Sequence record: NZ_CP027230.1
Length of the DNA stretch: 28,678 nucleotides
Strand: one strand, 5' to 3'
From: a plasmid
In this document: piece after piece, positions 3,518 to 11,580 of the stretch
Numbering within the stretch: position 1 is the first letter of the stretch
Layout: the number at the start of each line of letters is the position of its first letter
Translations under genes and position numbers: made by a program
Notes under the pieces: generated by a model
Told to the model about the DNA's origin: nothing
The model's input: only the letters and a program-made list of their open reading frames with translations
Database searches by the model: none

Positions 3518-3550
3518 TTTTACCTTATTTCTACTCTATTCCTACCGAAC

Positions 3551-3580
3551 AAAAACCACCCCATAAAGGGGTGGTTTTTT
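3551..3580 (+). terminator. Rho-independent terminator after the lipoprotein gene
   Basis: AAAAACCACCCC-ATAA-AGGGGTGGTTTTTT: GC stem followed by a T-run, 34 nt after the stop codon. Confidence 0.7.
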
Positions 3581-3807
3581 AATTTTGAAAGCAATTCACA
3601 ACCAAAATATAAGGGAGAAGGTGTATGTTATAATTTTTAATACTTCCCTTATATTTATTTTGTTGTAAAATTAGGTTTTTGTAATAATAACTTAATAAAG
3701 TTAGCTATGATGATGAACTTAACTTTAAAAGTTGGTGCAAAGTTACAAAAATATTTTTACTTACACAAACATTCATACTTTATTTTTTTTCACAATTTTT
3801 TTCTTCA

Positions 3808-4934
3808 CTTCCTGCCCCTTAAAATAGGAGTAAAACATTTGTGGTGAGCCAGCCCCAAACTTTTGGACGCTGACATCACTGATCACAAATGTTTTACAAC
3901 CTTAATAGTGGTGTTGCTCACCAAAAATAAGCAACCTCGTACACAAGGTACAGAGGTAGCTTTTTTTTGGCTTCACAACAACCAAAAGCGGTGTAAAGAG
4001 GGGTGAAAAGACCTTGCCCCCACTCGTGGACGGCAAGACCTTTTTTCACCCCTCTTTACAGTGTAGTTTCTAAGCCCACCCACCGCCCTTTTGCCCCTCC
4101 CCTAACCCCTCCCCACAGGGGAGGGGAACAGACCCGAATAAGAATAAGGTGACTCATTTTTACATCGTTTTTGATTAACAGAAAAGTGTAAGTTATTATT
4201 TATCAACTAATTAAGTATTTTCTTTAACCTGGCATCAAGTAGCCTATTTATAAGCTCTTTTTTTTATTTTGGGCGTTACCACAAGGGTCGGGCTATACTC
4301 TGCAATAAAGCTCTGAGAAGTCAAGAAAATTAAGCGTTTTAGAAGTCTTCCACTAAAGTGGCAAGCCTTCTCCTCCGCTGATTTTCTAAAGCCTTCTCAT
4401 TTACTTTATTTCCGTTCCTATCCCTAACGCGGGGGGACAGTTACCAAGTCCCTATTTTGTTCTTTTTTTTCCTTAATTTTTTCTCACTTCAAATCATCTT
4501 CTTTAGCTCTCATTTTTCTACTGCAAAGGTATGGCGGGGGGAAAACACAGCAAAAAAAATGAGGCTTTCATTAATTTTTTTGTCCTCGCCAGAGGCTGCG
4601 GAAAAAAATTAACGAACCTTCCTAATTTTTTTATGCTTTAGTTTTACGAGAACCCCCCGCCCTGATAGAGCAGTAGAAAAAGAGGCAAAAGAAGATTTAG
4701 GGTTTGAGGCTTTGGGGGAAAAAATATTGTTTGCTTTTTATTTTCTCTTCTCTTTTTTGTCCGAGCCGGACGCGCTTGAAAAACTTTGTTTTTCTGTATA
4801 TATCAAACCGAAAATGATGAAAGAAAAAATATATGGCAAATGTTATATATGTAACAAAATATTTATGAAAAATATACATAATAATTTGTGTATATTATTT
4901 ATTTGTCGTATATTTGCAGTGTAATAATAATTTA
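3808..4934 (+). repeat. Copy 1 of a duplicated structured GC-rich noncoding module. Part A is 3808-4154. A unique 315-bp insertion lies at 4155-4470. Part B, about 4472-4934, ends in a sigma-A promoter
   Basis: Near-identical to 7321-8166 (parts A and B), with an extra AATAAG and the 315-bp insertion. Contains a 14-bp perfect inverted repeat (3830-3843 / 3884-3897), a hairpin plus T8 (about 3935-3968), an interrupted inverted repeat of about 26 bp (3992-4061), a C4TC4-ACA-G4AG4 hairpin (4106-4126), and a long-range helix CTACTGC..GGCGGGGGG / CCCCCCGCC..GCAGTAG (4518-4676). Confidence 0.85.
4875..4922 (+). promoter_or_regulatory. Bacteroidetes sigma-A-type promoter (-33 TTTG, 20-nt spacer, -7 TATATTTG) plus conserved leader GTGTAATAATAATTTA; drives the J-domain gene
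   Basis: TACATAATAATTTG-N20-TATATTTGCAG matches the Bacteroides consensus TTTG-N19-21-TAnnTTTG. It is one of five near-identical copies in the window. Confidence 0.6.
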
Positions 4935-4948
4935 ATAATGAATGCTTT

Positions 4949-5428
4949 ATGAAGTACTTTAACGATTGCAAGACAACAGAAGAAGCAAAAAAATTATTTA
5001 AAAAACTTGCTTTTGAGAACCACCCAGACAGGGGAGGAGATAATACGATAATGCAAGCAATAAATGCAGAATATCAGTTTTTTATTGCTAAATATGCCAC
5101 AGGTACAGCGGAAGAAATTAATGAACAATTTAACGAGCAATTGCGTTATATGGACATCATTGGTAAACTTGCAAACCTTGTGGGTATAGAGGTGGAGCAG
5201 GTGGGGGAATGGCTTTGGATAAGTGGCAACACTTATGCACATCGAGAGCAATTGAAGTCTATAGGCTGCTTGTTTGCGCCTGTTAAGAAATTGTGGTACT
5301 ATAGAGATGAAGAGCATAAGAAGAGCAGCGGAGGAACCTCCCAGAGTATGGAAGACCTTAGAACCAAGTATGGCAGCTTACATATTAATTTAAACAAAGT
5401 ACGCAGCACCTATATAGACCATAAGTAA
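4949..5428 (+). CDS. J-domain (DnaJ-like) protein, 159 aa
   Basis: N-terminus TTEEAKKLFKKLAFENHPDRGGD...MQAINAEYQF: J-domain helix II/III with the invariant HPD tripeptide. The C-terminal ~90 aa has no recognisable similarity. Confidence 0.7.
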   Translation: MKYFNDCKTTEEAKKLFKKLAFENHPDRGGDNTIMQAINAEYQFFIAKYATGTAEEINEQFNEQLRYMDIIGKLANLVGIEVEQVGEWLWISGNTYAHREQLKSIGCLFAPVKKLWYYRDEEHKKSSGGTSQSMEDLRTKYGSLHINLNKVRSTYIDHK

Positions 5429-5654: not shown

Positions 5655-6263
5655 ATGTTTTCAATTACATTTATCGGACGCGTTACAAAGGACGCAACAG
5701 CAAAGCAGTTTGAGAAATCAAATGTGCTTAATTTTACAGTAGCCGTTAATTTTCCTACACAAGGAAAAGACGAGAACGGCGATACCATTTATGACACAAT
5801 TTATTTGCCGTGTTCAAAATGGAACTTACAAGGCGACCTTAATAAGGTTTGTGAACGCTTGAAAAAAGGTGCGCGGATAGCGGTACAAGGGTCTAAGTTG
5901 GAGGTTACAGTTCAGCAAGACCAGAATACAGGGAGGGAATACACAAATTTAAATGTAGTTGTGCAATCCTTTGAAGTGTTAGATTATCCAAAACAACCGC
6001 AAGCCGTTACACAGGGGTACGTACAACAGCAAGGGCAGCAGCTGCCACAGGGAGCTCCTCAACAAGCGTTTTACCCACCGCAAGGACAACAACAAGCACC
6101 ACAAGGACAACAACAAGCACCACAGGGGCAGGGGTTTTTTGCTAGAATGAGCGAAGAACAGGTAGCAATGCAAGCCCAAGCATTTGAGCAAGTACCGCCT
6201 GAAGTACGACACACTTACCAACAAGTACCGCAGGGACTTGAAGACGTAGATTTATCCTACTAA
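5655..6263 (+). CDS. ssb: Single-stranded DNA-binding protein, 202 aa
   Basis: OB-fold pattern hhhGRVTKDA...NFTVAVN...W......L.KG..IAVQG.L conserved against bacterial SSBs. Gln/Pro-rich flexible C-terminus with tandem PQGQQQA repeats and an acidic tip (EDVDLSY). Confidence 0.75.
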   Translation: MFSITFIGRVTKDATAKQFEKSNVLNFTVAVNFPTQGKDENGDTIYDTIYLPCSKWNLQGDLNKVCERLKKGARIAVQGSKLEVTVQQDQNTGREYTNLNVVVQSFEVLDYPKQPQAVTQGYVQQQGQQLPQGAPQQAFYPPQGQQQAPQGQQQAPQGQGFFARMSEEQVAMQAQAFEQVPPEVRHTYQQVPQGLEDVDLSY

Positions 6264-6269
6264 ACAAAC

Positions 6270-6295
6270 GACCCGAGCAAGTCGCTAAACTGCTC
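6270..6295. promoter_or_regulatory. 26-bp conserved motif GACCCGAGCAAGTCGCTAAACTGCTC, copy 1 of 3 (others at 6630-6655 and 8214-8239)
   Basis: Copies 1 and 2 are identical 26-mers, each followed by CTTTTTT. Copy 3 has 2 mismatches. All three lie immediately upstream of a gene or operon start. The motif contains the inverted repeat GAGCA-N11-TGCTC. Confidence 0.5.
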
Positions 6296-6327
6296 TTTTT
6301 TGTAATAATAATTTATTTTTTAAAGCT

Positions 6328-6618: not shown

Positions 6619-6661
6619 CCATAAGCCCCGACCCGAGCAAGTCGCTAAACTGCTCTTTTTT

Positions 6662-7320: not shown

Positions 7321-8166
7321 CTTCCTGCCCCTTAAAATAGGAGTAAAACATTTGTGGTGAGCCAGCCCCAAACTTTTGGACGCTGACATCACTGATCACA
7401 AATGTTTTACAACCTTAATAGTGGTGTTGCTCACCAAAAATAAGCAACCTCGTACACAAGGTACAGAGGTAGCTTTTTTTTGGCTTCACAACAACCAAAA
7501 GCGGTGTAAAGAGGGGTGAAAAGACCTTGCCCCCACTCGTGGACGGCAAGACCTTTTTTCACCCCTCTTTACAGTGTAGTTTCTAAGCCCACCCACCGCC
7601 CTTTTGCCCCTCCCCTAACCCCTCCCCACAGGGGAGGGGAACAGACCCGAATAAGGTGACTAAAATTAAAATACTTATAATTGCCAATTTATTTTTGTTT
7701 TCTCTTAATTTTTTCTCACTTCAAATCATCTTCTTTAGCTCTCATTTTTCTACTGCAAAGGTATGGCGGGGGGAAAACACAGCAAAAAAAATGAGGCTTT
7801 CATTAATTTTTTTGTCCTCGCCAGAGGCTGCGGAAAAAAATTAACGAACCTTCCTAATTTTTTTATGCTTTAGTTTTACGAGAACCCCCCGCCCTGATAG
7901 AGCAGTAGAAAAAGAGGCAAAAGAAGATTTAGGGTTTGAGGCTTTGGGGGAAAAAATATTGTTTGCTTTTTATTTTCTCTTCTCTTTTTTGTCCGAGCCG
8001 GACGCGCTTGAAAAACTTTGTTTTTCTGTATATATCAAACCGAAAATGATGAAAGAAAAAATATATGGCAAATGTTATATATGTAACAAAATATTTATGA
8101 AAAATATACATAATAATTTGTGTATATTATTTATTTGTCGTATATTTGCAGTGTAATAATAATTAT
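7321..8166 (+). repeat. Copy 2 of the duplicated structured GC-rich noncoding module (part A 7321-7661; part B about 7704-8166), ending in a sigma-A promoter upstream of the parA/traA operon
   Basis: Direct sequence identity with 3808-4154 and 4472-4934. Local GC is about 50%, against about 30% for the surrounding DNA. Confidence 0.85.
8107..8156 (+). promoter_or_regulatory. Third copy of the conserved sigma-A promoter (identical to 4875-4922) at the 3' end of repeat copy 2, upstream of parA/traA
   Basis: Identical sequence TACATAATAATTTGTGTATATTATTTATTTGTCGTATATTTGCAGTGTAATAATAATT. Confidence 0.55.
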
Positions 8167-8281
8167 TAATAAAACAGAGCATTGTAAACACGCCTGTAAT
8201 GTAATTGAAGACTGACCCGAGTAAGTCACTAAACTGCTCATTTATATAGTATTTGTAATAACTTCTTAATAATTAAACACT

Positions 8282-9031
8282 ATGAATGTATTAGTAAATT
8301 TAAACCACAAAGGAGGGGTAGGAAAAACTACCAATACTATTCATATAGGCGCAGAGCTTATGAATAGGGGCTATAAAGTTTTATTGATTGATGCAGACAA
8401 TCAATGTGATTTAACAGTAGGCATAGGGGTAAAAGAAAGCCGGTATACAATACAAAATTTTTTGAATTGTGAACAAGGTTATAGGGTAGCTACAGTGTCT
8501 GAAAATTTTCATGTTCTTGCTGGACATCCTAATTTTCATGCAAACAGGTATAACCGATTAGCTTTGGGTAAGGCTATAAATCATTATAACCTTGCAGGTT
8601 TTTATGATTTTATTCTTGTTGATGTACCGCCTACAGGTATTAATCCTGAAGCTACATCGCCCGCAGAGCTGGCTTTGTGCGCTTGTAATTACTTTTTTGT
8701 ACCTTTGCAGGCCGATATGTTTTCAATTAAAAATATAAACGCTTTTTTAGGTAGGGTGCTTGAAATGAGAAAATACAATCCTAACATGAAGTTTTTAGGT
8801 ATGTATTTTAGTAATGTACTTACTACCACAAGCGTGTTTAAAGAATATTACCAAATGTTACAAGAACAGGCTCCTGATAATCTTTTTACTACTTATATTC
8901 GTAGAGATACTGAAGTGGTAAAAGCTGCTATTTTAGGACAAACTATCTTTGAATATAACGAGAAGTGTCGAGCGAGTGATGATTTTAAAAGTTTGGTAAG
9001 TGAAATTTTAAGTAGAATTGAAAAAATATAA
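8282..9031 (+). CDS. ParA/MinD-family ATPase (conjugative-transposon TraA-like partition ATPase)
   Basis: Deviant Walker A KGGVGKTT at the N-terminus, ...LLIDADNQCDLT..., ...ILVDVPPTG... 249 aa. Typical first gene of a Bacteroidetes tra operon. Confidence 0.8.
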   Translation: MNVLVNLNHKGGVGKTTNTIHIGAELMNRGYKVLLIDADNQCDLTVGIGVKESRYTIQNFLNCEQGYRVATVSENFHVLAGHPNFHANRYNRLALGKAINHYNLAGFYDFILVDVPPTGINPEATSPAELALCACNYFFVPLQADMFSIKNINAFLGRVLEMRKYNPNMKFLGMYFSNVLTTTSVFKEYYQMLQEQAPDNLFTTYIRRDTEVVKAAILGQTIFEYNEKCRASDDFKSLVSEILSRIEKI

Positions 9032-10163: not shown

Positions 10164-11293
10164 AAGAAGAAGATAACAAAATGCCCGAAAACGTCATTGT
10201 AAGAGAAAAGTTTAATACGGACTATATAGATAGGGACGTTATTAGACTTAGCAATGATTTTATTGAAGACTTTTTTTTATCAGAAGAAACGTCTTTAGAA
10301 TTATCTATTAACTGTTATAAAATCATTTTTGAGATTATGAAAATAATCCACAATGAACAGTTTAAACTTGAAGAAAATAAGCGTAAGGGACAATTAAGGT
10401 TGTTTGAAGATGATTTTTTAACTGAAAACAACACTTATTTGTTAATTAAAATTAGAAACTCTAAGATAACAAGAGATACTAAGTTATTGGAAGAAGCGTA
10501 CGAAAAATTAGTTAAATACAAACAGAAATGGTACAAAGCAACTAATTCTAAAGGAAAAAAAATAAAGACCTTTGGGGGGCTCATTTCAAATGTTAATTAT
10601 GAAGACTTTGAAAGAGGTTATACGAGATTTTTAGTTAGTTCTTACTGGCTTCAAAAAATGTTAGATTTAGCAAACAAAGGTTATAACAATTTTCTTGCTG
10701 GAATTATTAATCAAACTAATAGTTCAAAGAATATTTTTACTGCAATATGGTTAACTCATAGGGCAGTAGACAGCGAACGTTTAACGGTTCGGTATCTTAA
10801 TGAAACTTTTGGTGTAAATTGTAAAACAGCGAGAGACTTTTGTAATAAGTTTTTAAAACTGCGAAAAAGTTTTTTAGACAAAAATGCGCTAACATCTTTT
10901 AATTATAAAGCGGACGGAGCGGGGCACGTTATCATTGAAAGGTATAAAAATAAGACTCTAAACCAAGAAGGTCTAATAACGCCTGAAAGTACAAATGAAC
11001 AGCAAATAAAAACATACATAGCAAGTTACTATAAGAAAAGGCATAAGCTAACAAATGAACAACACGCTTTTATTAAGAGAGAATTAAAGAATAGTCCTAA
11101 GAACAAGAAACTTTTAACAGAAGCGTATAATAGGCTTGTAGTTTTCACAAAGTTAGGCTGCAATGGTGAATATAAAGTAATGACCGATTATGTAGGAATT
11201 AAGTTTATTTTACACTTCCAACAATTCATCAATACTCTTTGCCAAGAAGAAGGTATACCAAAGGAATTGTGGCCAAATTTTGGTAAAAAATAG
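10160..11293 (+). CDS. Hypothetical 377-aa protein; candidate replication initiator (Rep), inferred from the adjacent iterons
   Basis: No diagnostic motif recognised. It lies immediately upstream of the terminator, the 6x iteron array, the AT-rich tract and the primase gene. Confidence 0.3.
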   Translation: MKEEDNKMPENVIVREKFNTDYIDRDVIRLSNDFIEDFFLSEETSLELSINCYKIIFEIMKIIHNEQFKLEENKRKGQLRLFEDDFLTENNTYLLIKIRNSKITRDTKLLEEAYEKLVKYKQKWYKATNSKGKKIKTFGGLISNVNYEDFERGYTRFLVSSYWLQKMLDLANKGYNNFLAGIINQTNSSKNIFTAIWLTHRAVDSERLTVRYLNETFGVNCKTARDFCNKFLKLRKSFLDKNALTSFNYKADGAGHVIIERYKNKTLNQEGLITPESTNEQQIKTYIASYYKKRHKLTNEQHAFIKRELKNSPKNKKLLTEAYNRLVVFTKLGCNGEYKVMTDYVGIKFILHFQQFINTLCQEEGIPKELWPNFGKK

Positions 11294-11380: not shown

Positions 11381-11580
11381 AATTGCAAGATACCACGTAC
11401 AATAAAAATTAATATGCTTATTTTCAACACAATAGAAAACCAATAAAAAGTTATCAACAAATTTCAATTGCAAGATACCACGTACAAATTTCAATTGCAA
11501 GATACCACGTACGGAATTGCAAGATACCACGTACGGAATTGCAAGATACCACGTACAGGCAATTGCAAGATACCACGTAC
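11381..11580 (+). repeat. Iteron array: 6 direct copies of the 20-mer AATTGCAAGATACCACGTAC (candidate oriV or Rep/partition binding sites)
   Basis: Exact copies at 11381, 11466, 11493, 11515, 11537 and 11561. The last five are spaced 22-27 bp apart, about two helical turns. Confidence 0.8.

What the first reader, a model, noticed from the sequence alone, without database searches (positions are those of the whole stretch)
4094..4126. Canonical G-quadruplex / i-motif sequence inside both repeat copies (also 7607-7639)
The + strand reads CCCCTCCCCTAACCCCTCCCC-ACA-GGGGAGGGG. The minus strand therefore carries GGGGAGGGGTTAGGGGAGGGG, four G4 tracts with loops of 1/3/1 nt. That is a textbook intramolecular G4 motif and is extremely unexpected by chance in a 30%-GC replicon. 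On the + strand the same C-tracts can either form an i-motif or pair with the adjacent GGGGAGGGG as a 9-bp GC hairpin. The two C-tracts are alternative partners, giving a potential switch. If the minus strand is the transferred strand, the G4 would form in the entering ssDNA.
Basis: seen in the sequence. Interest (0 to 1): 0.55.

Follow-up and report, generated by a model that had tools for sequence, protein, structure and literature searches.

The report
G-quadruplex-prone cap of plasmid hairpin element
Four G-tracts that could fold into a four-stranded DNA structure are real, duplicated and conserved at one end of a hairpin-rich non-coding element in the probable first-transferred region of a Flavobacteria-type conjugative plasmid, but nothing yet shows that the structure forms or what it does.

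Summary
Window 4094-4126 and 7607-7639 read CCCCTCCCCTAACCCCTCCCCACAGGGGAGGGG. The minus strand carries four G4 tracts with 1/3/1 loops, far above chance for this ~33% GC sequence.

The motif is not free-standing. It is the G-rich end of a ~338-nt, ORF-free, three-hairpin element ("A") present twice, upstream of the J-domain/SSB operon and the ParA operon of a Flavobacteriales-type (MOBB/MPF-B) conjugative element.

All five related lineages I could recover keep the complementary C-arm, both G-arms and a further GG(T/C)GGTGGGTGGG tract. The finding therefore survives its own refutation test.

Wobble-pair asymmetry, a minus-only apical motif and one compensatory series say the G-rich minus strand is the strand that folds. 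It is also the template strand of all genes, and so the inferred transferred strand.

Next to each copy lies a 157-nt hairpin carrying a perfect Bacteroidetes -33/-7 promoter with a pre-melted -7 box. This is a likely Frpo-like single-strand promoter.

My best reading is a very stable hairpin/G4 cap on an sso/ssi-like element of the entering strand. A minus-strand ncRNA, or a plain GC clamp with no G4 role, remain live rivals. G4 formation is untested.

The parts
4094..4126 (-). G-module, copy 1. Minus strand 5'-CCCCTCCCC (4126-4118) TGT GGGGAGGGG (4114-4106) TTA GGGGAGGGG (4102-4094). It is a 9-bp GC hairpin plus a second identical G-arm, giving four G4 tracts with 1/3/1 loops. It is also a perfect homopurine mirror repeat.
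   Evidence: Sequence. G4Hunter 2.56. Energies.
7607..7639 (-). G-module, copy 2, identical to copy 1.
4075..4088 (-). Further G-rich tract GGGCGGTGGGTGGG (+ strand CCCACCCACCGCCC). Copy 2 is at 7588-7601. It is present after every sub-unit in all lineages. Part of it (GCGGTG) pairs with CACCGC 3' of hairpin H3, closing that hairpin.
   Evidence: GGTGGGTGGG invariant in 5 lineages. Minus-strand folds.
3808..4145 (-). Element A, copy 1: a ~338-nt ORF-free multi-hairpin element. The G-module is its 5' end in minus-strand sense.
   Evidence: Repeat D1. Fold z-scores of -8.7 to -12.8. No plausible ORFs. No Rfam match.
7321..7658 (-). Element A, copy 2, 100% identical to copy 1 over the 300 nt reported.
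3830..3897 (-). Hairpin H1 (copy 2 is +3513). Its tip carries the motif GCGTCC..GGGGC on the minus strand.
   Evidence: Compensatory differences against L011.
3910..3983 (-). Hairpin H2, closed by the conserved GGTGTTG/CAACAACC stem. The inner hairpin sequence differs between lineages but always pairs.
3993..4059 (-). Hairpin H3. It has a conserved tandem wobble (minus GGTC/GGTC, which is A.C/C.A mismatches on the plus strand) and the apical motif GCCGTCC..GGGGGC.
4519..4675 (-). Context: D2, a 157-nt imperfect hairpin next to A. Copy 2 is at 7751-7907. I read it as a candidate single-strand (Frpo-like) promoter.
   Evidence: DNA fold -47.3 kcal/mol, z -8.7 on the minus strand, against -44.5, z -6.9 on the plus strand. 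Compensatory series A-T / G.T / G-C on the minus strand.
4524..4554 (-). Perfect Bacteroidetes promoter boxes on the minus strand, TTTG-N19-TACCTTTG, in the 3' arm of D2. Copy 2 is at 7756-7786. The -7 box sits in an 8x8 internal loop.
   Evidence: (31/31 identical in L011, L122, L123).
4885..4916 (+). Conventional double-strand promoter (TTTG-N20-TATATTTG) of the J-domain/SSB operon. The equivalent at 8117-8148 serves the ParA operon.

Best explanation
**What it is.** The motif is the conserved G-rich 5' cap, in minus-strand sense, of a strand-specific three-hairpin non-coding element (A). A sits in the leading-type region of a Flavobacteriales-like conjugative plasmid or ICE. There is one copy before the J-domain/SSB operon and one before the ParA operon.

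**Which strand folds.** The folding strand is the G-rich minus strand. It is the template strand of all genes and, by inference, the strand transferred into the recipient.

**What it folds into.** When that strand is single-stranded, the cap folds into a very stable structure. This is either the 9-bp GC hairpin with a spare G-arm, or a four-tetrad G-quadruplex. In the second case the C-arm can pair with the downstream GGGCGGTGGG.

**What it most likely does.** I think it acts as a fixed structural boundary or roadblock. It lies between A, which I read as an sso/ssi-like site for starting complementary-strand synthesis, and the neighbouring D2 hairpin, which I read as a Frpo-like single-strand promoter driving the downstream operon. 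On this reading it would stop or pause polymerases and keep the two folded units independent.

**Shown:** the sequence, the duplication, the conservation, the hairpin architecture and the strand asymmetry.

**Inferred:** the identity of the transferred strand, the priming role of A, the promoter role of D2, G4 formation and the roadblock role.
For: **Motif and chance.**

**Setting.** The motif sits at the end of an ORF-free element with strongly non-random folding: RNA z -9.2 and -8.7, DNA z -12.8 and -9.9.

**Conservation.** Five lineages (window; L011; L122/L125; L123/L124/L126/L127; L012) keep the C-arm, both G-arms and the GGTGGGTGGG tract. Meanwhile the hairpin sequences and flanks diverge to 71-80% identity. 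Changes inside the module fall only in loops or lengthen the G-runs.

**Folding strand.**
- Whole-element folds have 14/35/15/32/22 G.U pairs on the minus strand against 4/9/5/8/10 on the plus strand.
- The H2 and H3 hairpins alone give 46 against 19, with the minus-strand energy lower in 16 of 19 hairpins.
- The apical motif GC(C)GTC..GGGGC occurs 2 to 4 times per locus (twice per complete A element), only on the minus strand and nowhere else in up to 28 kb.
- One D2 stem position runs A-T, G.T, G-C on the minus strand across lineages.

**Transferred strand.**
- All genes are on the + strand, with the DUF5712 (MOBB-typed) relaxase, T4CP and tra genes downstream.
- SSB and other leading genes are reported to be oriented so that the T-strand is their template (PMC11541004).
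- The J-domain gene has homologues in 2690 plasmids, 2214 of them conjugative. In an IncX4 plasmid it heads a co-oriented cluster upstream of taxA-taxC.

**D2.** It carries a perfect -33/-7 promoter on the minus strand in the 3' arm of a 157-nt hairpin, with the -7 box in an 8x8 loop. It is oriented so that the folded strand is transcribed into the operon.

**Energetics.** ViennaRNA gives the G4 -40.8 kcal/mol, against -18.9 (RNA) or -10.0 (DNA) for the hairpin.

**Precedents.**
- F carries two 92%-identical Frpo copies about 5 kb apart, one of them before ssb (PMC9849209).
- ICEBs1 has an orientation-specific sso predicted to form three stem-loops (PMC4595007).
Against: - There is no experiment, and oriT was not located. 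The transferred strand is inferred from general rules and from D2.
- A has no promoter boxes and no CS-6 motif. It has no similarity to any sso or Frpo in PLSDB. 'Priming site' therefore rests on analogy of architecture alone.
- In double-stranded form the D2 promoter points leftward into A. The same G-rich sequence would then also be made as RNA. G.U pairs are better tolerated in RNA than G.T pairs in DNA.
- The conserved complementary C-arm competes with the G4.
- The G4 energy model is approximate.
- The family is small. It comes only from metagenome contigs, and copies within an element are homogenised, so the effective number of independent observations is about five.
- Related MOBB plasmids (Chryseobacterium) and the L128-L137 relatives lack the element. 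It is therefore not essential to this backbone.
Confidence: 0.38

Rival explanations
1. Element A is a minus-strand non-coding RNA. It would be transcribed from the conserved D2 promoter in the double-stranded plasmid, starting near 4517 or 7749. The G-module would be its 5' structural domain, either an RNA G-quadruplex or a GC hairpin. The RNA would regulate or protect the plasmid, for example as an anti-defence RNA.
For: - The minus-strand promoter is perfect and 31/31 conserved, and it points into A.
- The wobble-pair excess on the minus strand is typical of RNA.
- The last hairpin (H1) is followed on the minus strand by a short U-rich tail in four lineages: TCCTATTTT, TCCGATTTT, ACCTTTTTTT and TCCGCTTTT.
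- Another minus-strand RNA gene candidate lies just beside A at 3545-3770, with its own promoter and terminator.
Against: - This reading does not explain why the promoter sits in a 157-nt hairpin with a mismatched -7 bubble.
- The scan finds no terminator-like site for A.
- There is no Rfam match.
- The distance and content between promoter and A differ between copies: element B is inserted in copy 1 only, and lies on the other side of A in L012.
Confidence: 0.3
2. The module is simply a strong GC hairpin clamp whose 3' arm was duplicated by slippage (12-nt period). The G4 potential is incidental and has no role.
For: - The C-arm is as conserved as the G-arms.
- In L012 the stem changes completely, to CCCCCCCTTAC/GTAAGGGGGGG, yet still pairs. 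The T and both A's are lost together.
- The two C-tracts form a 12-nt direct repeat.
Against: - The second G-arm is kept intact in all five lineages, although the hairpin does not need it.
- In three lineages the C-arm shrinks to 8 nt while the G-arms grow to 10-11 nt.
- About 50 nt of G-tracts are conserved in total.
- An independent repeat family in Pannonibacter keeps a third G-arm that is not complementary to its C-arm, GGGGTGGGGGG, in 15 of 16 hairpins.
Confidence: 0.2
3. The C-rich + strand is the functional one, as RNA or DNA. It would act as an i-motif, as a C-rich Rho-utilisation site, or as a hairpin switch in read-through transcripts of the upstream gene.
For: - The + strand has about 55 nt of C-rich, G-poor sequence in the same sense as the genes.
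- The + strand also folds well.
Against: - The wobble asymmetry, the apical motif and the D2 compensatory series all point to the minus strand.
- A canonical terminator already ends the upstream gene at 3551-3579.
- There is no + strand promoter upstream of A.
- By established knowledge, i-motifs need acidic pH.
Confidence: 0.05
4. The module is a REP-like mobile or repetitive palindrome that happened to insert at the edge of A. Alternatively, it folds as an intramolecular purine triplex rather than a G4.
For: - Nearly the same module (C-arm, 3-4-nt loop, GGGGAGGGG, TT(A), GGGG(A/T)GGGG) is a dispersed intergenic repeat in Rhizobiales and Pannonibacter replicons: 116 records and 350 places, with inverted doublets.
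- It also occurs in high-GC viral contigs, where it follows ORF ends (stop codons).
- GGGGAGGGG-TTA-GGGGAGGGG is a perfect homopurine mirror repeat next to its pyrimidine complement. This is the Y-R-R layout of a 'paperclip' triplex (sequence).
Against: - In this family the module is always at the same position in A, once per element. It is never in doublets and never elsewhere in 28 kb.
- The host chromosome could not be examined.
- Triplex formation is untestable here, and K+ favours the G4 over a purine triplex (established knowledge).
Confidence: 0.07

Closest known systems
Frpo/ssi single-strand promoters of F and ColIb-P9 leading regions
   Same: - Non-coding, GC-rich relative to the replicon, and strongly folded.
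- Two near-identical copies a few kb apart, one directly before ssb, co-oriented with leading genes.
- Function tied to the transferred single strand.
- Sources: PMC9849209, PMC11541004, PMC13478746.
   Different: - No sequence similarity: there is no hit in PLSDB.
- The promoter boxes are the Bacteroidetes -33/-7 type, and they lie in the neighbouring D2 hairpin. They are not in element A or the G-module.
- No G4-type tract is described for Frpo.
Single-strand origins (sso) of rolling-circle plasmids and ICEBs1 sso1
   Same: - An orientation-specific non-coding element with three stem-loops.
- A supports second-strand synthesis after transfer (PMC4595007).
   Different: - No CS-6 or RS_B-type consensus and no homology.
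- Two copies.
- A G-rich cap has not been reported for sso elements, to my knowledge.
- Priming activity is untested.
Functional bacterial and organellar G4 elements coupled to a nearby promoter (Neisseria pilE G4, mitochondrial CSB II). Cited from my own knowledge, not from a tool.
   Same: - A short-loop G-tract array downstream of a promoter, with the G-rich strand as the non-template strand. Transcription would therefore free it to fold.
- The tract GGGCGGTGGGTGGG resembles the pilE G4 sequence.
   Different: - Here a perfectly complementary C-arm is adjacent.
- The setting is a conjugative element's leading region.
- No recombination or primer-formation role is shown.
REP/REPIN-like G-rich palindromes of Rhizobiales and Pannonibacter replicons
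   Same: Almost the same three-part module and the same G-tract spacing.
   Different: - Those are dispersed intergenic repeats, and in Pannonibacter they lie in inverted doublets about 150 nt apart.
- Here there is a single module fixed at the end of a larger element in a Bacteroidota plasmid.
- Homology is unlikely. The resemblance is probably convergent.

Membership tests
Canonical intramolecular G-quadruplex motif | Four runs of at least 3 G separated by loops of 1-7 nt on one strand. | tested here: met
   Minus strand reads G4-A-G4-TTA-G4-A-G4. G4Hunter score is 2.56.
Canonical intramolecular G-quadruplex motif | G-tracts retained in homologous elements. | tested here: met
   All five lineages keep at least 4 tracts, with G4Hunter 2.76-2.92.
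Canonical intramolecular G-quadruplex motif | K+-dependent folding shown by CD, polymerase stop or chemical probing. | not testable with these tools
   Only a thermodynamic model is available: G4 -40.8 kcal/mol against hairpin -10 to -19.
i-motif or hairpin switch on the + strand | The C-rich strand is the strand that exists and folds as a single strand. | tested here: not met
   Wobble pairs, the apical motif and the compensatory series all mark the minus strand.
Frpo/ssi single-strand promoter | Sequence similarity to known Frpo/ssi. | tested here: not met
   blastn of 3780-4180 against PLSDB, which I expect to contain F-like and IncI plasmids, found no match.
Frpo/ssi single-strand promoter | A long stem-loop that rebuilds both promoter boxes, oriented into the downstream genes. 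| tested here: not met
   Neither the G-module nor A has boxes. The neighbouring D2 hairpin does meet this feature.
Frpo/ssi single-strand promoter | Located before ssb or other leading genes that are co-oriented so the T-strand is their template. | tested here: met
   SSB is at 5655-6263 and all genes are on the + strand. The rule is from PMC11541004. The transferred strand itself is inferred.
Single-strand origin (sso) | A strand-specific, non-coding array of stem-loops. | tested here: met
Single-strand origin (sso) | Conserved CS-6 (TAGCGW) or RS_B sequences. | tested here: not met
   No TAGCGW lies inside either A copy.
Single-strand origin (sso) | Orientation-dependent priming of second-strand synthesis. 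| not testable with these tools
   This needs an M13 or rolling-circle plasmid rescue assay.
Intrinsic terminator | A GC hairpin followed by a T-run. | tested here: not met
   There is no terminator-like site at the module on either strand. The tails are AACAGACC on the + strand and TTAGGGG on the minus strand.
REP/REPIN repeats | Many dispersed copies, often as inverted doublets. | tested here: not met
   There are only two copies, both inside A. The host chromosome is unknown, so the test is partial.
H-DNA or intramolecular triplex | A homopurine-homopyrimidine mirror repeat. | tested here: met
   GGGGAGGGG-TTA-GGGGAGGGG is a perfect mirror repeat. Formation itself is not testable here.
Any Rfam RNA family | A covariance-model match at or near the gathering score. 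| tested here: not met
   There are no matches at gathering score, and only far-below-threshold hits to unrelated families (mostly eukaryotic miRNA/snoRNA models) in E-value mode.

The most novel reading that the evidence does not exclude
On this reading, a conserved G-quadruplex, or a hairpin/G4 switch, is a working part of a previously undescribed Bacteroidota 'establishment cassette' on the transferred strand. The cassette would comprise an sso-like hairpin array capped by the G4, next to a single-strand promoter with a pre-melted -7 box. The G4 would act as a polymerase roadblock. It would time the conversion from single to double strand and keep the promoter single-stranded while the ssb and parA operons are first expressed.
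Probability: 0.15. Interest if true: 0.8.

Novelty: new variant of a known kind. Interest (0 to 1): 0.57.

Why it matters
Single-strand promoters and single-strand origins are how conjugative elements establish themselves in a new host. To my knowledge they have been characterised experimentally mainly in Proteobacteria and Firmicutes (my own reading of the field, not a tool result).

If this reading holds, three things follow:
- It gives Bacteroidota a first concrete candidate cassette with testable coordinates.
- It provides a rare case of a G4-competent tract under purifying selection in an AT-rich bacterial replicon, on the very strand that is exposed as single-stranded DNA.
- It makes the question 'do bacterial G4s do anything during conjugation?' directly testable, using a 33-nt target and clean mutants.

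If the G4 is incidental, the finding still marks a new structured non-coding element family.

Tried and rejected
- **Rfam.** Gathering and E-value modes gave nothing credible.
- **BLAST.** blastn of the element against PLSDB and phage records found no match.
- **Genome-contig scan with ParA.** It returned one distant, uninformative locus.
- **Metagenome-contig scan.** The conserved linker AACAACCAAAAGCGGTG gave 102 hits. None showed similarity to the element, so I treat them all as chance matches. The same pattern in viral contigs was also chance.
- **Viral scans.**
  - The D2 core gave zero hits.
  - CCCACCCACCNCCC..CCCCNCCCC gave mainly long homopolymer-like poly-C runs, many at locus or contig ends, which I take to be low-complexity or assembly artefacts.
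- **Exact-protein look-up of ParA.** The contigs break at the repeat.
- **Protein-coding reading of the repeats.** Only short, unconserved ORFs were found.
- **Terminator reading.** No T-run follows the module.
- **sso CS-6 motif.** It is absent from A.
- **Further single-strand promoters.** Looking before the Toprim gene and the relaxase found iterons but no D2-like hairpin.
- **Analogue in a related Chryseobacterium MOBB plasmid.** Only a weak C-rich stretch was found, with no structure (z -0.1).
- **Full-text searches for the sequence strings.** Nothing relevant to bacteria turned up. Searches on RIME and on G4-plus-conjugation gave no direct precedent.
- **Promoter boxes inside A's own hairpins.** The arms are too short, and only one imperfect -7-like box is present, without a -33 partner.
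Full report
**1. The observation**

The stated strings are at the stated coordinates in both places. The + strand reads CCCCTCCCC (4094-4102), TAA, CCCCTCCCC (4106-4114), ACA, GGGGAGGGG (4118-4126), and the same again at 7607-7639. On the minus strand this is CCCCTCCCC-TGT-GGGGAGGGG-TTA-GGGGAGGGG. It runs on into CAAAA-GGGCGGTGGGTGGG, so the G-rich tract is about 50 nt long.

G4Hunter peaks at 2.56 here, the highest value in the window. In 300 Markov-1 simulations the maximum never exceeded 2.08, and only 8 of 300 contained any canonical G4 motif. The two copies lie in a 100% identical duplicated segment, so they count as one event.

**2. What the window is**

Pfam scans show a Bacteroidota-type conjugative element, read from the ORF list:
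- topoisomerase III C-terminus and a TraO-like protein;
- a J-domain protein (4949) and SSB (5655);
- ParA (8282) and a Toprim protein (12052);
- a 1052-aa DUF5712 protein (14552), then T4CP, TraG/VirB4, TraM and DUF4138/TraN.

All genes are on the + strand. The closest isolate plasmids are from Chryseobacterium and Elizabethkingia, with TraG at 45-50% identity. In one of them MOB-suite types the DUF5712 relaxase as MOBB.

Six iterons at 11381-11580 suggest a plasmid-like replicon or partition site.

**3. Where the motif sits**

It is the end of a ~338-nt element, which I call A (3808-4145 and 7321-7658).
- A has no credible ORF and no Rfam match.
- It folds far better than shuffles: RNA z -9.2 and -8.7, DNA z -12.8 and -9.9.
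- It has three long hairpins, H1 (3830-3897), H2 (3910-3983) and H3 (3993-4059), joined by conserved linkers.

Copy 1 precedes the J-domain/SSB operon. Copy 2 precedes the ParA operon. Each operon also has its own conventional Bacteroidetes promoter, TTTG-N20-TAnnTTTG.

**4. Homologues**

Protein-anchored look-ups recovered related elements with the same gene order. These are L011, L012/L013 and L122-L127. A-type elements are present in L011, L012 and L122-L127, again in duplicate wherever the contig is long enough.

The hairpins differ widely in sequence between lineages and between tandem sub-units, yet they always pair. The linkers are kept.

On the minus strand the cap reads:

| Lineage | C-arm | Loop | G-arm 1 | Spacer | G-arm 2 |
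|---|---|---|---|---|---|
| window | CCCCTCCCC | TGT | GGGGAGGGG | TTA | GGGGAGGGG |
| L011 | CCCCTCCC | TGT | GGGGAGGGGG | TA | GGGGAGGGGG |
| L122 | CCCCTCCC | TGT | GGGGAGGGG | TT | GGGGGAGGGGG |
| L123 | CCCCTCCC | TGT | GGGGAGGGG | TTA | GGGGAGGGGG |
| L012 | CCCCCCC | TTACGGGCAGTAA | GGGGGGG | C | GGGGGGGG |

- Each cap is followed by GG(T/C)GGTGGGTGGG or, in L012, GGTGGGTGGG.
- G4Hunter is 2.76-2.92 in every lineage, and this is the top peak of every locus.
- Flanks are 71-80% identical. Inside the module, changes fall only in loops or lengthen G-runs.
- Internal sub-units carry the GGTGGGTGGG tract but not the cap. The cap occurs once per composite element, always at the same end.
- Relatives with a different layout (L128-L137, L140) and a Chryseobacterium MOBB plasmid lack the element.
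- Within each lineage the two copies are identical, which points to concerted evolution.

**5. Which strand folds**

A transition in a hairpin arm makes G.T on one strand and A.C on the other. Without strand selection the two should be equally common.
- Whole-element folds give 14/35/15/32/22 wobble pairs on the minus strand, against 4/9/5/8/10 on the plus strand.
- Restricted to the H2 and H3 hairpins, the counts are 46 against 19, with lower energy on the minus strand in 16 of 19 hairpins.
- H3 carries a conserved tandem wobble: minus GGTC/GGTC, which is A.C and C.A on the plus strand.
- A tip motif, GC(C)GTC(C/T/G)..GGGG(G)C, occurs 2 to 4 times per locus (twice per complete A element), only on the minus strand and nowhere else in up to 28 kb.

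G-richness of the minus strand inflates the raw counts, so I rate this as moderate to good evidence rather than proof. Taken together, it says the G-rich strand is the one selected to fold.

**6. Which strand is transferred, and the neighbouring hairpin**

By the usual rule the relaxase gene enters last. The published finding is that SSB and other leading genes are oriented so that the T-strand is their template (PMC11541004). On both counts the transferred strand here should be the minus strand.

The J-domain gene supports the 'leading region' label. It has homologues in 2690 PLSDB plasmids, 2214 of them conjugative. In an IncX4 plasmid it heads a co-oriented cluster just upstream of taxA-taxC.

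Independent support comes from D2 (4519-4675 and 7751-7907).
- It is a 157-nt imperfect hairpin: minus-strand DNA fold -47.3 kcal/mol, z -8.7.
- Its 3' arm, in minus sense, carries a perfect promoter, TTTGCTGTGTTTTCCCCCCGCCATACCTTTG. This is 31/31 identical in four lineages.
- The -33 box is paired. Seven of the eight -7 box nucleotides lie in an 8x8 internal loop.
- The opposite side of that loop varies between lineages (CTGATAGA, CTGGTAGG, CTGATAGG), while the box side does not.
- One stem position runs A-T (window), G.T (L011, L122), G-C (L123) on the minus strand.

In the folded minus strand this promoter would use the 5' arm as template. It would produce + sense RNA starting near 4670-4676 or 7902-7908, heading into the operon. 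This is the geometry of Frpo, and F likewise has two 92%-identical copies about 5 kb apart, one of them before ssb (PMC9849209). In double-stranded form the same boxes point leftward into A.

**7. What the cap can fold into**

- **Hairpin.** The 9-bp GC hairpin has -18.9 kcal/mol as RNA and -10.0 as DNA.
- **Alternative hairpin.** The same C-arm can pair with the second G-arm.
- **G-quadruplex.** A four-tetrad G4 with 1/3/1 loops has -40.8 kcal/mol in ViennaRNA's model. In that case the freed C-arm pairs with GGGCGGTGGG and encloses the G4.
- **Triplex.** The two G-arms form a perfect homopurine mirror repeat next to their complement, so a Y-R-R intramolecular triplex is also possible.

Comparative data do not separate these.
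- The co-loss of T and both A's in L012 favours pairing between the C-arm and both G-arms.
- The lengthening of G-runs while the C-arm shrinks, and the conservation of about 50 nt of G-tracts, favour something beyond a hairpin.

**8. The same module elsewhere**

The exact 21-mer occurs in eight unrelated viral contigs, with GC 0.37-0.69. Most carry the complementary C-arm just upstream, and in a 69% GC contig the module follows ORF ends (stop codons) four times.

A 52-nt query hits 350 places in 116 plasmid or chromid records, mainly Sinorhizobium, Rhizobium and Pannonibacter.

In 50 kb of a Pannonibacter replicon there are 16 such hairpins. Fifteen of them are followed by T(T/A/G)A-GGGGTGGGGGG, and they sit in inverted doublets about 150 nt apart. 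So 'GC hairpin plus spare G-arm' is a recurrent repeat architecture there.

In the present family it is a single, fixed part of a larger element. I regard the resemblance as convergent.

**9. Mechanism**

My best-supported reading (confidence about 0.4) is this. The cap is a very stable fold on the entering single strand. It bounds an sso/ssi-like hairpin array (A) on the side facing the single-strand promoter (D2). It acts as a boundary or roadblock for polymerases.

ICEs are known to need sso elements: orientation-specific non-coding sites, predicted in ICEBs1 to form three stem-loops (PMC4595007). Known single-strand promoter regions are GC-rich islands (PMC13478746).

The main rival (about 0.3) is that A is a minus-strand ncRNA made from the D2 promoter in the double-stranded state. 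The two readings are not exclusive. A plain GC clamp with an incidental G4 motif gets about 0.2. The + strand readings and the REP or triplex readings are minor.

**10. Verdict**

The element is not a member of Frpo, of known sso types, of terminators or of any Rfam family, by the features I tested. It works most like an sso/ssi-plus-Frpo cassette, with a G-rich cap that those families are not known to have.

Noticed in passing
window 4519-4675 and 7751-7907 (boxes 4554-4524 and 7786-7756, minus strand): This is a 157-nt imperfect hairpin with a perfect Bacteroidetes -33/-7 promoter in one arm. The -7 box sits in an 8x8 internal loop. The hairpin is oriented so that the folded minus strand would be transcribed into the SSB and ParA operons. 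I read it as a candidate Frpo-like single-strand promoter for Bacteroidota. The boxes are 31/31 conserved in four lineages, and one stem position shows the compensatory series A-T / G.T / G-C.
   Followed up: partly
window 3545-3770, minus strand (half-repeat at 3581-3602; promoter 3769-3738; terminator 3551-3579): A 22-nt exact match to one end of the 46-nt Flavobacterium psychrophilum type II CRISPR repeat (PMC5395568, PMC4814470). On the minus strand it reads GTTGTGAATTGCTTTCAAAATT. It has its own upstream promoter and runs straight into a terminator. Variants are conserved in L011, L012, L122 and L123. It looks like a solitary repeat unit, that is, a crRNA mimic and a possible RNA anti-CRISPR.
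   Followed up: partly
window 4240-4440 (element B); also L011 1808-2003, L122 5287-5440, L012 7331-7497 and 15062-15217: A second conserved non-coding block, 87-89% identical between lineages. It is present in only one of the two window copies and lies on the other side of A in L012. A variable hairpin is inserted into GGGCGTTACC[..]GGGTCGGGC in L122 and L123. Its function is unknown.
   Followed up: no
window 11381-11580, minus strand: Six exact copies of GTACGTGGTATCTTGCAATT (iterons), lying between the 377-aa ORF and the Toprim gene. This is probably a replication origin or a partition site.
   Followed up: no
L122 4900-5190 and L123 4895-5180: About six iterons of AAAATGGCAACTTTTGT(G/A)(A/C)AGCGTCAAAAC lie between elements A and B. 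They are absent from the window.
   Followed up: no
L156 (Pannonibacter phragmitetus plasmid NZ_CP013069, 30000-79999); also L138 and L139: There are sixteen GC hairpins in 50 kb. Fifteen are followed by T(T/A/G)A-GGGGTGGGGGG, and they are arranged as inverted doublets about 150 nt apart. This is a REPIN-like repeat family with the same hairpin-plus-four-G-tract layout as the finding.
   Followed up: partly
window 4949-5428 (J-domain protein): Homologues occur in 2690 PLSDB plasmids, 2214 of them conjugative. In an IncX4 plasmid the gene heads a co-oriented cluster upstream of taxA-taxC. It looks like a widespread leading-region gene of unknown role.
   Followed up: partly
window 3808-4145 vs 7321-7658; L011 1087-1651 vs 4504-5066; L012 7497-8020 vs 10600-11125; L122 4288-4828 vs 8441-8794: The two A copies are identical within every lineage, while the lineages differ by 20-28%. 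This points to concerted evolution (gene conversion) between the copies, as noted for Frpo1 and Frpo2 of F.
   Followed up: partly
window 6269-6301, 6629-6661, 8213-8245: Three copies of CGACCCGAGCAAGTCGCTAAACTGCTCTTTTTT-like sequence lie after the SSB gene, after the LPD29-like gene and before parA. They may be repeated terminator or operator modules.
   Followed up: no
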